DNA of 64,000 bases. Source: a virus. How positions within the stretch are numbered: the first letter of the stretch is position 1; the number at the start of each line of letters is the position of its first letter. Location: positions 48,492 to 112,491 of IMG/VR virus record IMGVR_UViG_3300045988_099631. One strand, 5' to 3'. The notes under the pieces were generated by a model that did no database searches, had not been told where the DNA came from, and was given only the letters and a program-made list of their open reading frames with translations. Position numbers and translations under genes: made by a program. Shown piece after piece: positions 24,523 through 24,929 of the stretch.

Positions 24523-24562
24523 CCATTTCCGCGAGGCCACGAAAATGGTTGAAAACCAAGAA

Positions 24563-24600
24563 AACCAGAGCCATCCACGTTCGGACGGTTCTGGTTTTCA
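24563..24600. terminator. bidirectional hairpin terminator
   Basis: Long hairpin AACCAGAGCCATCC..GGACGGTTCTGGTT flanked by an A-run (5') and a T-run (3'). Confidence 0.55.
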
Positions 24601-24628
24601 TTGACACATTCAGTTTTTGCGGTATAAT
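24601..24628 (+). promoter_or_regulatory. canonical promoter driving the antisense RNA
   Basis: TTGACA-16-TATAAT. Confidence 0.6.
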
Positions 24629-24706
24629 GAAGGAAAAGGGGCGCTGCCACAAGCGGTCAGCCAAGGATGCCTATGGGATTTGACCTAACCTTTATGCTGA
24701 TGGCGG

Positions 24707-24793
24707 TCATTTCTTTTTGCAGATCTGAACAATCAAACCCGCAAATGCGATGAGTACGGTGGAGAACGAGAAGATCTCAGTCCATGTAGCCAT
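24707..24793 (-). CDS. 28-aa hydrophobic peptide, type I toxin / holin-like toxin candidate
   Basis: Own translation: MATWTEIFSFSTVLIAFAGLIVQICKKK. AAGGAGGTG SD lies 6 nt upstream. It has its own TTGACA-17-TAAAAT promoter and a convergent antisense promoter. Confidence 0.6.
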   Translation of the reverse strand: MATWTEIFSFSTVLIAFAGLIVQICKKK

Positions 24794-24850
24794 GCGCAAC
24801 ACCTCCTTTATAGGAAGTGCCGACCGTCTGCCACCTCCATGCAGCGCCCC

Positions 24851-24880
24851 GCCCACCGGAAGGTGGGCTTTTTTATTTTA
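24851..24880 (+). terminator. intrinsic terminator of the antisense RNA
   Basis: GCCCACC-GGAA-GGTGGGC followed by TTTTTTATTTT. Confidence 0.7.
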
Positions 24881-24903
24881 ACGGTACAATAACATAATGT
24901 CAA
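24875..24903 (-). promoter_or_regulatory. canonical promoter for the 28-aa toxin mRNA
   Basis: Minus strand TTGACA (24903-24898), a 17-nt spacer, then TAAAAT (24880-24875). Confidence 0.6.
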
Positions 24904-24929
24904 CAAACCAAGAAAATTTAAGGGCAGGC

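What the first reader, a model, noticed from the sequence alone, without database searches (positions are those of the whole stretch)
24556..24905. Type I toxin-antitoxin-like module: 28-aa hydrophobic peptide with a convergent, fully overlapping antisense transcript
The minus strand encodes MATWTEIFSFSTVLIAFAGLIVQICKKK (24793-24707), a single TM-like helix with a KKK tail. It has an AAGGAGGTG SD and a TTGACA-17-TAAAAT promoter (24903-24875). The SD can be sequestered in an 8-bp hairpin, CACTTCCT-ATAA-AGGAGGTG (plus-strand coordinates 24800-24819). On the + strand a TTGACA-16-TATAAT promoter (24601-24628) fires toward it and meets a strong intrinsic terminator (24851-24880). This predicts a roughly 245-nt RNA antisense to the whole ORF and its leader. 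A bidirectional hairpin at 24563-24600 would terminate the toxin mRNA. Convergent strong promoters, SD occlusion and a small membrane peptide are the hallmarks of type I TA loci and holin-like toxins in Firmicutes prophages. None of this appears in the ORF track.
Basis: partly seen in the sequence, partly recalled or inferred. Interest (0 to 1): 0.68.

Follow-up and report, generated by a model that had tools for sequence, protein, structure and literature searches.

The report
Phage membrane toxin with antisense RNA
A temperate phage of gut Clostridia carries a 28-residue membrane-peptide gene that appears to be kept silent by its own mRNA fold and by an RNA made from the opposite strand; it is a real, widespread but unannotated relative of the Bacillus BsrG/TxpA type I toxin-antitoxin systems, so it is a new member of a known kind.

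Summary
The two convergent promoters are two of only three near-consensus sites in 64 kb (0.08 expected). The 28-codon ORF is conserved in 39 viral loci, 4 genomes and about 1,500 protein clusters, almost all unnamed. It keeps its length, start and stop and shows a third-position substitution excess, so it is coding.

Comparison adds what one sequence could not show. The toxin 5' UTR pairs with its 3' UTR in a 21-bp covarying helix. The SD sits in a conserved 8-bp hairpin. The stop codon lies in a hairpin that, on the other strand, is followed by a T-run made from the KKK codons. An antisense promoter lies 77-91 nt beyond the stop in 13 of 13 representative loci.

This is the architecture determined experimentally for bsrG/SR4 of Bacillus phage SPbeta. 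Nine of 40 family members match Pfam Hol_Tox, which contains BsrG, TxpA and BsrE; the window peptide does not.

In most relatives the antisense RNA should be about 85 nt and cover only the 3' UTR. In the window's clade that terminator has decayed, and a strong one lies at the toxin's 5' end. Transcripts and toxicity are untested.

The parts
24875..24903 (-). Toxin promoter: TTGACA (24903..24898), 17-nt spacer, TAAAAT (24880..24875). Inferred transcription start near 24869/24868.
   Evidence: 11 of 12 matches; one of 3 such sites in 64 kb, 0.08 expected. Its position is kept in divergent homologues with a different spacer sequence, as TTGACA-17-TAGAAT with TG.
24851..24875 (+). GC-rich stem-loop GCCCACC-GGAA-GGTGGGC plus T-run. 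It is an intrinsic terminator for the plus-strand (antisense) RNA and, read on the minus strand, the 5'-terminal stem-loop of the toxin mRNA.
   Evidence: The hairpin covaries in L011, L012, L016 and L054. It is absent in the more distant homologues L037, L055, L058 and L059.
24819..24850 (-). 5' strand of the long-range helix P1 in the toxin 5' UTR (GGGGCGCTGC...GCAGACGGTCGGC).
   Evidence: RNAalifold and pair counts. On the toxin strand there are 30 G-U cells against 6 A-C cells.
24799..24820 (-). SD-sequestering hairpin: anti-SD 24819..24812, loop ATAA, SD AAGGAGGTG 24808..24800.
   Evidence: -14.1 kcal/mol. Eight pairs, 92% of cells paired across 12 homologues, 2 pairs with compensatory changes.
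24707..24793 (-). Toxin ORF of 28 codons plus TGA: MATWTEIFSFSTVLIAFAGLIVQICKKK.
   Evidence: Among 18 distinct 28-codon homologues, differences by codon position are 1327/980/1960, pN/pS is 0.41, and four of the five other frames carry a stop in 13-18 of the 18, the fifth (frame -1) in 7. One predicted TM helix.
24681..24718 (+). Hairpin containing the toxin stop codon (24681-24709), followed on the plus strand by the T-run TTTCTTTTT (24710-24718), which is the complement of the KKK codons. It is the family's conserved antisense-RNA terminator and is degenerate in this window.
   Evidence: window -6.9 kcal/mol; 11 of 13 representatives -14.2 to -18.9 kcal/mol, each more stable on the antisense strand, and all followed by a T-run..
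24638..24662 (-). 3' strand of P1 in the toxin 3' UTR (GGCTGACCGCTTGTGGCAGCGCCCC). Its complement is the 5' end of the antisense RNA.
   Evidence: Unique in the window.
24601..24628 (+). Antisense (antitoxin) promoter TTGACA-16-TATAAT. Inferred transcription start near 24635.
   Evidence: 12 of 12 matches. A promoter of 10-12 of 12 matches lies 77-91 nt beyond the toxin stop in 13 of 13 representative loci.
24548..24599 (-). Terminator of the toxin mRNA: long hairpin 24599..24561 plus a T-rich tail.
   Evidence: An equivalent sense-strand terminator just beyond the antisense -35 is found in 8 of 13 representatives.
24550..24869 (-). Predicted toxin mRNA, about 320 nt (ends inferred).
   Evidence: -136.7 kcal/mol, z = -7.0. 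The G-U excess in P1 implies the sense transcript includes 24638-24662.
24635..24875 (+). Predicted antisense RNA. The long form of about 240 nt ends at the 24851-24868 terminator. A short form of about 83 nt ending near 24718 is possible if the weak stop-codon hairpin still terminates.
   Evidence: long form z = -4.3; short form z = -1.0.

Best explanation
This is a type I toxin-antitoxin module of the BsrG/TxpA kind, carried as an accessory ('moron') gene by a temperate phage of Oscillospiraceae-type Clostridia.

Shown or predicted from the sequence and its homologues:
- The minus strand gives an mRNA of about 320 nt for a 28-residue single-helix membrane peptide with a KKK tail.
- That mRNA is closed by a 21-bp helix (P1) between its 5' and 3' UTRs.
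- Its SD is locked in an 8-bp hairpin.
- Its stop codon sits in a further hairpin.
- A stronger convergent promoter inside the toxin's 3' UTR makes an antisense RNA. The first 25 nt of that RNA are the exact complement of the 3' strand of P1.

Inferred by analogy with bsrG/SR4 and txpA/RatA:
- The antisense RNA pairs with the toxin 3' UTR, starting at the stop-codon hairpin loop, and displaces the 5' strand of P1.
- The resulting long duplex is cut by RNase III, and the toxin mRNA is degraded while the SD stays occluded.
- If the antisense RNA is lost, for example through loss of the prophage or transcription shut-off, the more stable toxin mRNA is translated and the peptide damages the membrane or cell envelope.

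In this window's clade the stop-codon terminator has decayed. The antisense RNA therefore probably runs on to the terminator at 24851-24868 and also covers the ORF and the SD.
For: Observation.

Coding:
- The ORF is 28 codons in 18 distinct nucleotide versions; two other homologues are 27 and 29 codons.
- The ATG and the stop codon (TGA or TAA) stay at the same positions, and differences are highest at the third codon position (1327/980/1960).
- pN/pS is 0.41. Four of the five other frames carry a stop in 13-18 of the 18 versions; frame -1 does so in only 7.

Family size:
- 39 viral loci and 4 genomes, including cultured Butyricicoccus pullicaecorum DSM 23266.
- 209 proteins by profile search.
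- 1,508 50%-identity cluster representatives at E <= 0.001.

RNA structure:
- RNAalifold finds P1, the SD hairpin and the stop-codon hairpin.
- 93.3% of cells are paired, against 34-51% when partners are slid.
- 11 pairs carry compensatory changes, against 2-5 when slid; 0 of 500 shuffles reach the observed values.
- G-U outnumbers A-C 30 to 6 in P1 and 16 to 1 in the SD hairpin on the toxin strand.

Antisense gene:
- A promoter of 10-12 of 12 matches lies 77-91 nt after the stop in 13 of 13 representatives.
- The stop-codon hairpin is more stable on the antisense strand in 11 of 13 and is always followed there by a T-run.

Link to known toxins:
- 9 of 40 family members match PF16935 at E <= 0.01 (best 3.6e-7), and no other family is hit.
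- BsrG, TxpA and BsrE score 34.5, 31.3 and 47.9 bits on PF16935, whose cutoff is 23.3.

Architecture match to bsrG/SR4 (PMC3834814, read):
- In bsrG mRNA, nt 1-35 pair with nt 232-262 in helix P1.
- The SD lies in SL1.
- The stop codon lies in the 5' part of SL3, whose loop is contacted by the SR4 terminator loop.
- The terminator follows P1.
- SR4 binding opens P1.
- The antitoxin promoter is stronger than the toxin promoter.

Autonomy of the module:
- It occurs in many contexts: after endolysins, next to a SocA/Panacea TA pair, beside integrases, and between recA-recX and rimO on a chromosome.
- It persists in close relatives that lack ltp.
Against: - There are no transcript, toxicity or neutralisation data.
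- The window peptide has no Pfam hit, and only a 20.6-bit match to PepG1, whose cutoff is 70.
- Profile-profile comparison with BsrG, TxpA and BsrE is inconclusive, at 6-29% probability.
- The SD hairpin (-14 kcal/mol) persists whether or not the antisense site is blocked, so how translation is ever switched on is unknown.
- The strict scan finds no sense promoter in 4 of 13 representatives.
- pN/pS of 0.41 is only moderate, and the same nucleotides are also constrained by RNA structure.
- In this window the family's conserved antisense terminator is degenerate, so the antisense RNA's length is uncertain.
Confidence: 0.75

Rival explanations
1. The peptide is a lysis-cassette accessory protein (a holin, antiholin or lysis-timing factor) rather than an addiction or defence toxin. 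The antisense RNA would merely time its expression during the lytic cycle.
For: - In several phages the module lies directly after the endolysin: L011 (LL-H holin plus CHAP/SH3 endolysin) and L064-L066 (Amidase_2).
- In others it lies directly before the endolysin: L057 (Amidase_3) and L054. Sources.
- One homologue has a weak match to a PHROG holin family (E = 0.0015).
- Pfam names the related family 'holin-like'.
Against: - In the window the endolysin is at 45092-46639, 20 kb away on the other arm.
- The module has its own promoter and terminator in every context.
- It also occurs on a bacterial chromosome between recA-recX and rimO, and next to integrases or another TA pair.
- The phages concerned already carry a canonical holin.
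- The junction between lysis cassette and lysogeny genes is a usual insertion site for accessory genes (my own knowledge, not tested here).
Confidence: 0.1
2. The plus-strand promoter at 24601 mainly drives ltp (24999-25766), through a long leader with an attenuator at 24851-24868. Its overlap with the small ORF would be incidental.
For: The strict scan finds no other plus-strand promoter between 24880 and 24999. ltp is on the same strand, 124 nt beyond the terminator.
Against: - The promoter keeps the same position relative to the toxin stop in 13 of 13 loci, most of which have no ltp.
- tblastn finds ltp in only 5 of the 13 close relatives (those sharing the neighbouring 87-aa ORF).
- A strong terminator lies between the promoter and ltp.
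- The first 25 nt of this RNA are the conserved, covarying complement of the P1 3' strand.
Confidence: 0.05
3. The ORF is not translated. The locus would be a pair of structured non-coding RNAs, and the apparent coding conservation would be a by-product of RNA-structure constraints.
For: - Much of the ORF is base-paired in the predicted fold.
- The last 30 nt of the ORF are nearly invariant even at synonymous sites.
- The SD is tightly occluded.
Against: - The frame is open at exactly 28 codons in 18 of 18 versions, while four of the five other frames carry a stop in 13-18 of the 18 (frame -1 in only 7).
- Substitutions are in excess at the third codon position.
- ATG, the SD with 6-nt spacing, and the basic C-terminus are conserved while the hydrophobic core varies conservatively.
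- Some members match a profile built from proven toxic peptides.
Confidence: 0.05
4. The peptide is a secreted or signalling peptide (bacteriocin- or pheromone-like) rather than an intracellular toxin.
For: One chromosomal homologue (L060-L063) lies just downstream of a histidine kinase and LytTR response-regulator pair. Such pairs often control peptide bacteriocins or pheromones (my own knowledge, not tested here).
Against: - There is no leader or double-glycine motif.
- The whole peptide is one TM helix plus a KKK anchor.
- No exporter or immunity gene is seen beside the module in the loci examined.
- This context was seen for only one homologue.
Confidence: 0.03

Closest known systems
bsrG/SR4 of Bacillus subtilis prophage SPbeta (type I TA; Jahn and Brantl 2013, PMC3834814)
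   Same: - Both are prophage-borne.
- Both encode a small single-TM peptide ending in KKK.
- The toxin mRNA is about 300 nt and is closed by a long 5'-3' helix P1.
- The SD lies in a stem-loop.
- The stop codon lies in the 5' arm of a stem-loop whose complement is the antitoxin's terminator hairpin.
- The toxin terminator comes shortly after P1.
- A convergent antisense RNA is complementary to the 3' strand of P1.
- The antitoxin promoter is closer to consensus than the toxin promoter.

Sources. BsrG matches PF16935, which some family members also match.
   Different: - The peptide is 28 aa, not 38.
- The window peptide does not reach the Pfam threshold, and hhalign is inconclusive.
- The antisense promoter lies inside the toxin transcription unit, between P1 and the toxin terminator. 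The family's predicted RNA of about 85 nt is therefore wholly complementary, whereas SR4 (183 nt) has a 60-nt non-complementary 5' part.
- The SD helix is already 8 bp in the free mRNA, against 4 bp in bsrG that extends to 8 bp on SR4 binding.
- In this window the antisense RNA probably continues across the whole ORF.
- The host is Clostridia, not Bacilli.
txpA/RatA (B. subtilis skin element) and EF3263 with its ~110-nt antisense RNA (Enterococcus faecalis); the TxpA family of Fozo et al. 2010 (PMC2887945)
   Same: - A hydrophobic toxin with an M-x-T-[YFW]-x-E-x-[LF] N-terminus.
- A convergent small RNA over the 3' UTR.
- Location on a prophage or mobile element.
- The family was noted in 2010 to be under-annotated and to have rare members in Clostridiales.
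- RNase III-dependent decay is the accepted mechanism (titles and abstracts).
   Different: - TxpA is 59 aa, and only its first 17 residues match the profile.
- No P1-type comparison is available for these systems here.
- The present clade was not retrieved as named proteins in any source searched.
Pfam PF16935 Hol_Tox (putative holin-like toxin; TCDB 1.E.42 as I recall it)
   Same: It is the only Pfam family hit by members of this peptide family: 9 of 40 at E <= 0.01, and 3 relatives carry it as a precomputed domain.
   Different: The window peptide and most of its relatives fall below the 23.3-bit gathering score. The profile does not currently capture this clade.
ibs/Sib of Escherichia coli (antisense RNA covering the whole small ORF)
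   Same: If the window's antisense RNA ends at 24868, it covers the entire 28-codon ORF and its SD, as Sib RNAs cover the ibs ORFs (my own knowledge of that system).
   Different: There is no sequence relationship. In this family full overlap looks like a secondary change in one clade, following decay of the stop-codon terminator.
hok/Sok of plasmid R1 (fold-back inhibition by 5'-3' pairing)
   Same: The toxin mRNA is closed by long-range 5'-3' pairing and has an occluded translation start.
   Different: Sok pairs with the hok 5' leader, and hok needs 3' processing for activation (my own knowledge). Here the antisense RNA is encoded opposite the 3' strand of the closing helix. The peptides are unrelated.
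Clostridioides difficile prophage type I TA modules (CD0956.2/RCd10 and others; review PMC6563280)
   Same: The host class is Clostridia, the modules are prophage-borne, prophages carry multiple copies, and the proposed role is prophage maintenance.
   Different: Those toxins are 34-59 aa and, according to the review, have no sequence similarity to B. subtilis toxins. The present peptides link to the BsrG/TxpA profile instead.

Membership tests
Type I toxin-antitoxin system (general) | Small hydrophobic peptide gene that is genuinely coding | tested here: met
   The 28-codon frame is kept in 18 distinct versions, with a third-position excess of differences, pN/pS of 0.41 and four of the five other frames carrying a stop in 13-18 of the 18 (frame -1 in only 7). 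One TM helix plus a KKK tail.
Type I toxin-antitoxin system (general) | Antisense RNA gene overlapping the toxin mRNA | tested here: met
   This is a sequence prediction only. A promoter of 10-12 of 12 matches lies 77-91 nt beyond the stop in 13 of 13 loci, with a terminator on the same strand. The transcript itself was not observed.
Type I toxin-antitoxin system (general) | Peptide is toxic when expressed, and the RNA neutralises it | not testable with these tools
   This needs inducible expression with and without the antisense region.
TxpA/BsrG/BsrE toxin family (Pfam PF16935 Hol_Tox) | Peptide scores at or above the PF16935 gathering threshold (23.3 bits) | tested here: not met
   The window peptide has no PF16935 hit even at E <= 10. 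Two homologues score 17.3 and 17.8 bits.
TxpA/BsrG/BsrE toxin family (Pfam PF16935 Hol_Tox) | Homology of the peptide family as a whole to proven members | tested here: inconclusive
   Nine of 40 members hit PF16935 at E <= 0.01 (best 3.6e-7) and hit nothing else. Three relatives carry the domain precomputed. BsrG, TxpA and BsrE pass the threshold. However, hhalign against BsrG, TxpA and BsrE gives only 6-29% probability.
bsrG/SR4-type RNA architecture | Toxin mRNA closed by a long 5'-3' helix (P1), whose 3' strand is the antisense target | tested here: met
   The helix has 21 pairs, 93% of cells are paired, and 8 of the pairs carry compensatory changes. G-U outnumbers A-C 30 to 6 on the toxin strand. 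The published bsrG structure was read.
bsrG/SR4-type RNA architecture | SD sequestered in a stem-loop | tested here: met
   An 8-bp hairpin is conserved in 12 of 12 aligned homologues, at -14.1 kcal/mol in the window.
bsrG/SR4-type RNA architecture | Stop codon in a stem-loop whose complement is the antitoxin's terminator | tested here: inconclusive
   Met in 11 of 13 family representatives (-14 to -19 kcal/mol plus a T-run). In the window and L015 it is degenerate (-6.9 and -10.7 kcal/mol). The published feature was read.
   The window has a weak stop-codon terminator and a strong terminator at 24851-24868. The 3' end can only be settled by RNA mapping.
Phage holin of a lysis cassette | Encoded next to and co-transcribed with the endolysin | tested here: not met
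   The window's endolysin is at 45092-46639. The module has its own promoter and terminator, and also occurs outside prophages. It is adjacent to an endolysin in some other phages.

The most novel reading that the evidence does not exclude
The module may not be primarily a prophage-addiction device. It could instead be a phage-carried abortive-infection or superinfection-defence 'moron' that works alongside Ltp. When an incoming phage shuts off host transcription, the short-lived antisense RNA would decay, the P1-stabilised toxin mRNA would be translated, and the lysogen would die before the invader completes its cycle.

Several observations fit this. The module sits beside the superinfection-exclusion gene ltp in the window, and beside a SocA/Panacea TA pair in L012. 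It is duplicated around ltp in close relatives. A further unexplored point is that the antitoxin's 5' end is a near copy of the toxin's own 5' UTR. It therefore acts as a competitor for the 3' strand of P1 rather than as a blocker of the ribosome site.
Probability: 0.2. Interest if true: 0.6.

Novelty: new member of a known kind. Interest (0 to 1): 0.42.

Why it matters
- **Annotation gap.** The peptide is one codon too short for the usual gene callers (my inference). In the database hits it appears mainly as over-extended or unnamed ORFs. About 1,500 cluster representatives and dozens of gut-phage contigs carry it without a name.
- **Wider reach of a known family.** Recognising it extends BsrG/TxpA-type type I systems from Bacilli into Oscillospiraceae-type Clostridia and their phages. 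A 2019 review reported almost no homologues of known type I toxins in that group.
- **An old RNA design.** The bsrG mRNA design (P1, SD stem-loop, stop-codon stem-loop used as the antitoxin terminator) appears to be older and more general than the single Bacillus example.
- **Practical uses.** Such modules can bias prophage retention. They could also supply counter-selection cassettes for gut anaerobes that are hard to engineer, as was done in C. difficile.
- **A test organism exists.** A homologue lies on the chromosome of a cultured strain, Butyricicoccus pullicaecorum DSM 23266.

Tried and rejected
- **Rfam.** Nothing was found at gathering thresholds except three tRNAs elsewhere. Only chance-level hits to hairpins appeared at E <= 10.
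- **blastn against phages and plasmids.** Searching 24400-25000 found no match.
- **tblastn of the peptide against the same collections.** No match, possibly because of low-complexity filtering.
- **Tools that refused the 28-aa peptide.** It is too short for the search for homologous proteins, the search for related loci and the look-up of encoding contigs. I used the 49-codon GTG-extended frame and alignments instead.
- **Single-sequence search.** With the 49-aa frame it found only one protein.
- **Exact 27-nt pattern in representative genomes.** No match.
- **NCBIfam.** Weak PepG1 hits of 13-21 bits against a cutoff of 70, which I treat as TM-helix similarity only.
- **hhalign against BsrG, TxpA and BsrE.** Inconclusive.
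- **TxpA as a query.** It gave only 3 proteins, too few for a good profile.
- **Literature.** A search for type I TA in Oscillospiraceae, Faecalibacterium and related taxa returned only unrelated microbiome papers. No paper on Hol-Tox in clostridial phages was found.
- **Ideas considered and dropped.**
  - A par/Fst-like direct-repeat design. The repeats here are inverted, so the antisense 5' end is identical to the toxin 5' UTR, not complementary to it.
  - A conserved upstream pseudo-SD switch. The GGAGGTG motif occurs only in the window's subclade.
  - A protein antitoxin on the plus strand. No conserved ORF exists.
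Full report
**1. The observation**

- **ORF.** The minus-strand ORF 24793..24707 encodes MATWTEIFSFSTVLIAFAGLIVQICKKK. Residues 7-25 have a mean Kyte-Doolittle hydropathy of 2.2, and the tail carries +3 charge.
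- **Translation signals.** The SD AAGGAGGTG (24808..24800) lies 6 nt before the ATG. It can pair with CACTTCCT (24819..24812); the local hairpin folds at -14.1 kcal/mol.
- **Promoters.** A TTGACA-17-TAAAAT promoter lies on the minus strand (24903..24875, 11 of 12 matches). A perfect TTGACA-16-TATAAT promoter lies on the plus strand (24601-24628).
- **Chance estimate.** TTGACA-N16-18-TAWAAT occurs three times in the whole window against 0.08 expected, and two of the three sites are these.
- **Terminators.** The plus-strand terminator is at 24851-24868, followed by a T-run. A long minus-strand hairpin at 24599..24561 has a T-rich tail.
- **Fold.** The predicted 320-nt toxin mRNA folds at -136.7 kcal/mol, z = -7.0 against shuffles.

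**2. What the window is**

The surrounding DNA is a temperate phage.

- Integrase at 33882-34970, anti-repressor at 27705-28547, an IS-type transposase at 28877-29980, and an endolysin at 45092-46639, followed by large minus-strand structural genes.
- Three tRNAs.
- The module sits between early-region genes (DUF3560, DUF6927, an 87-aa ORF) and the superinfection-exclusion lipoprotein gene ltp (24999-25766). A HIRAN/endonuclease gene follows.
- It is 20 kb from the lysis genes.

**3. Homologues**

The locus matched no known RNA family or annotated record:

- Rfam, the annotated phage and plasmid collections and a tblastn of the peptide all gave nothing.

Searches of the large unannotated collections found many homologues:

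- Back-translated pattern scans found 16 and then 39 viral contigs.
- They also found four genomes: Butyricicoccus pullicaecorum DSM 23266, a Butyricicoccus MAG, an Oscillospiraceae isolate, and a 1.4-kb contig binned as Bacteroides.
- The peptides are almost always exactly 28 aa. Their consensus is MVT[YW]xELFx[FY]xxV[LI]IGxxxLxxQxxK[KR]K.
- A profile of 17 of them retrieved 209 proteins from 5.8 billion. Those listed are 28-32 aa or N-terminally over-extended, and the only names given are 'hypothetical protein' or similar non-informative labels.
- An exhaustive profile search of 1.84 billion cluster representatives found 1,508 at E <= 0.001, usually with the match at the C-terminal end of a mis-started ORF.
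- The family is therefore large and effectively unannotated. At 87 nt including the stop, the gene is probably below the usual gene-caller minimum (my inference).

**4. Is it coding?**

Yes.

- Among 18 distinct 28-codon versions, pairwise differences by codon position are 1327, 980 and 1960.
- Pooled pN/pS is 0.41.
- The frame is open in all 18 versions. Four of the five other frames carry a stop in 13 to 18 of them; the fifth (frame -1) does so in only 7.
- The ATG, the stop position, the SD and its spacing are kept.
- Divergent versions differ by synonymous or conservative hydrophobic changes.

**5. RNA architecture from comparison**

I aligned 12 representatives on the toxin strand (A4). 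RNAalifold and explicit pair counting gave four elements.

- **(a) Long-range helix P1.** It has 21 pairs and joins the toxin 5' UTR (window 24850..24819) to a block in the 3' UTR (24662..24638).
- **(b) SD hairpin.** It has 8 pairs.
- **(c) ORF hairpin.** It lies inside the coding region.
- **(d) Stop-codon hairpin.** Its 5' arm contains the stop codon (TGACCGCC...).

I counted pairs on elements (a), (b) and (d).

- 93.3% of cells form standard pairs, against 34-51% when partners are slid by 1-3 columns.
- 11 pairs show changes on both sides, against 2-5 when slid.
- 0 of 500 shuffles reach the observed values.
- For example, GGGGCGCTGC/GCAGCGCCCC in the window becomes GGCGTTACC/GGTATCGCC in L019 and GGTGTTACC/GGTAACACC in L059.

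On the toxin strand, P1 has 30 G-U cells but only 6 A-C cells. The SD hairpin has 16 and 1. These helices therefore form in the toxin mRNA, not in the antisense RNA. It follows that the toxin transcript must run through 24638-24662 to the outer terminator at 24599..24561. An equivalent sense-strand terminator just beyond the antisense -35 box is present in 8 of 13 representatives.

**6. The antisense gene**

- **Promoter.** In 13 of 13 representatives, a promoter of 10-12 of 12 matches lies on the opposite strand with its -10 box 77-91 nt beyond the toxin stop (official scans of L019 and L058). The RNA it makes starts a few nucleotides before the complement of the P1 3' strand. The antitoxin's 5' end is therefore almost the same sequence as the toxin's own 5' UTR.
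- **Stop-codon hairpin as terminator.** This hairpin is more stable when read on the antisense strand in 11 of 13 representatives (-14.2 to -18.9 kcal/mol). On that strand it is always followed by a T-run that is the complement of the Lys/Arg codons. That marks it as the antisense RNA's intrinsic terminator and predicts an RNA of about 85 nt covering only the toxin 3' UTR.
- **The window differs.** The window and its nearest relative L015 are the two exceptions. Here the hairpin has decayed to -6.9 kcal/mol, and the official scan does not call it.
- **Second terminator.** A GC-rich hairpin with a T-run between the toxin -10 box and P1 (window 24851-24868) is present in the window, L015, L011, L012, L016 and L054. 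It is absent in L037, L055, L058 and L059.
- **Consequence.** That is a clade-specific variant, and only RNA mapping can settle it.

**7. Comparison with known systems**

*Peptide level*

- The window peptide has no Pfam hit and only a 20.6-bit match to PepG1, whose cutoff is 70.
- Two homologues score 17.3 and 17.8 bits on PF16935 Hol_Tox, whose cutoff is 23.3.
- Of 40 family members, 9 hit PF16935 at E <= 0.01 (best 3.6e-7), and none hits any other family.
- The experimentally proven toxins BsrG, TxpA and BsrE score 34.5, 31.3 and 47.9 bits on PF16935. My BsrG sequence was verified against SPbeta, and TxpA.
- Profile-profile comparison is in register but not significant.
- Peptide homology is therefore likely but not proven. 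The window peptide fails the formal Pfam test.

*RNA level*

The published bsrG/SR4 structure (PMC3834814) matches point for point.

- In bsrG mRNA, nt 1-35 pair with nt 232-262 in a long helix P1.
- The SD is in stem-loop SL1.
- The stop codon is in the 5' part of SL3.
- The terminator follows P1.
- SR4 is complementary to the 3' part.
- SR4 binding makes nt 1-33 single-stranded and lengthens the SD helix.
- The antitoxin promoter is stronger than the toxin promoter.

*Earlier reports*

- Fozo et al. (PMC2887945) reported TxpA-like sequences in Clostridiales. They also found an antisense RNA of about 110 nt over the 3' UTR of the enterococcal homologue EF3263.
- A 2019 review states that homologues of known type I toxins were found in almost no Clostridia (PMC6563280).
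- I found no paper describing this clade.

**8. Mechanism**

*Shown or predicted from sequence and comparison*

- A coding 28-aa TM peptide.
- An mRNA closed by P1, with an occluded SD.
- A convergent antisense promoter of near-consensus strength.
- An antisense 5' end complementary to the P1 3' strand.

*Inferred by analogy*

- The antisense RNA pairs with the toxin 3' UTR and opens P1.
- RNase III cuts the duplex and the mRNA decays.
- Loss of the short-lived antisense RNA allows translation and membrane damage.

*Unexplained*

- Constrained folding shows the SD hairpin persists when the antisense target is blocked.
- How translation is ever activated is therefore not explained.

**9. Rival explanations**

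- **Lysis-cassette role.** The module's position right after or before endolysins in several phages suggests this. Against it, the module is 20 kb from the endolysin here and always has its own promoters. It also occurs between recA-recX and rimO on a chromosome, beside integrases, and beside a SocA/Panacea TA pair.
- **Plus-strand promoter as ltp promoter.** This is unlikely, because tblastn finds ltp in only 5 of the 13 close relatives that share the neighbouring 87-aa ORF, and most of the divergent loci that keep the promoter have no ltp.
- **Purely non-coding reading.** The codon pattern contradicts it.

**10. Verdict**

The locus is a new, unannotated clostridial and phage clade of a known kind of system, so it has moderate interest. 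Its main value is for annotation, for the evolutionary reach of the bsrG-type RNA design, and as a testable system in a cultured Butyricicoccus strain.

Noticed in passing
window 24469-24522: There is an 11-bp periodic tandem repeat, GCAAGTT(G/A)TA(A/C) x 4.7 (22-bp unit x 2.4, 100% match), just beyond the toxin-mRNA terminator. It is the only cluster of this motif in the window. Copy number and sequence vary among close relatives, and the repeat is absent from distant homologues of the module. It looks like iterons or operator sites.
   Followed up: partly
L002 1650-2100 (also L007, L010); the corresponding window stretch 25767-25936 lacks it: Close relatives carry a second, paralogous module (MVTYSDLIQIGILLVGICSLVLQISKKK) directly after ltp. 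It has the same promoter, P1, SD hairpin, stop-codon hairpin and antisense promoter. In those phages ltp is therefore flanked by two divergently oriented toxin modules. Contig IMGVR_UViG_3300013383_000028 also carries two copies, 14 kb apart (L012 and L015).
   Followed up: partly
L013 2912-3117 (same in L014): The two paralogous toxin ORFs are fused head to head across a single near-palindromic SD hairpin (CATGCGCAACACTTCCTATAAAGGAGGTGTTGCGCATG). One arm serves as the SD for each gene. ltp, both toxin promoters and both P1 5' strands are deleted. This looks like recombination between the palindromic SD hairpins of the two divergent modules.
   Followed up: partly
window 27697-27725 (minus strand): The third and last perfect TTGACA-17-TATAAT site in the window points toward the HIRAN/endonuclease I gene (27295..25937). 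It overlaps the start of the anti-repressor gene (27705-28547, plus strand), which suggests a divergent regulatory region.
   Followed up: no
window 14001-16000: GC content is 62% against about 49% for the rest of the window, with a sign change in GC skew. The 304-aa ORF 14451-15365 has no PHROG match. This may be a foreign insertion or the boundary of the element.
   Followed up: no
window 28877-29980: An IS-type transposase gene (PHROG 506, E = 5e-139) lies inside the phage's early or accessory region.
   Followed up: no
L017 3750-4450 (Butyricicoccus pullicaecorum DSM 23266, NZ_FUXW01000022.1): A homologous module (MVTYSELFQFCLVLIGFAGLIVQICKRK) sits on the chromosome between recA-recX and a rimO/miaB-type methylthiotransferase gene followed by a pgsA-like gene, not in a prophage. 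It has an 11-of-12 antisense promoter, but the strict scan finds no sense promoter. This is a cultured strain in which the system could be tested.
   Followed up: partly
L060 2501-2593 (also L061-L063): A 30-aa family member (MLTYSELFQFCLVIIGICSLFFQAHNSKKK) lies about 390 nt downstream of a histidine kinase and LytTR response-regulator pair in mouse and other gut metagenome contigs. This context is unlike the phage ones.
   Followed up: no
L012 3364-4288: A SocA/Panacea-domain antitoxin gene plus a 168-aa partner lie immediately next to the toxin module, so two toxin-antitoxin systems sit side by side after the endolysin.
   Followed up: no
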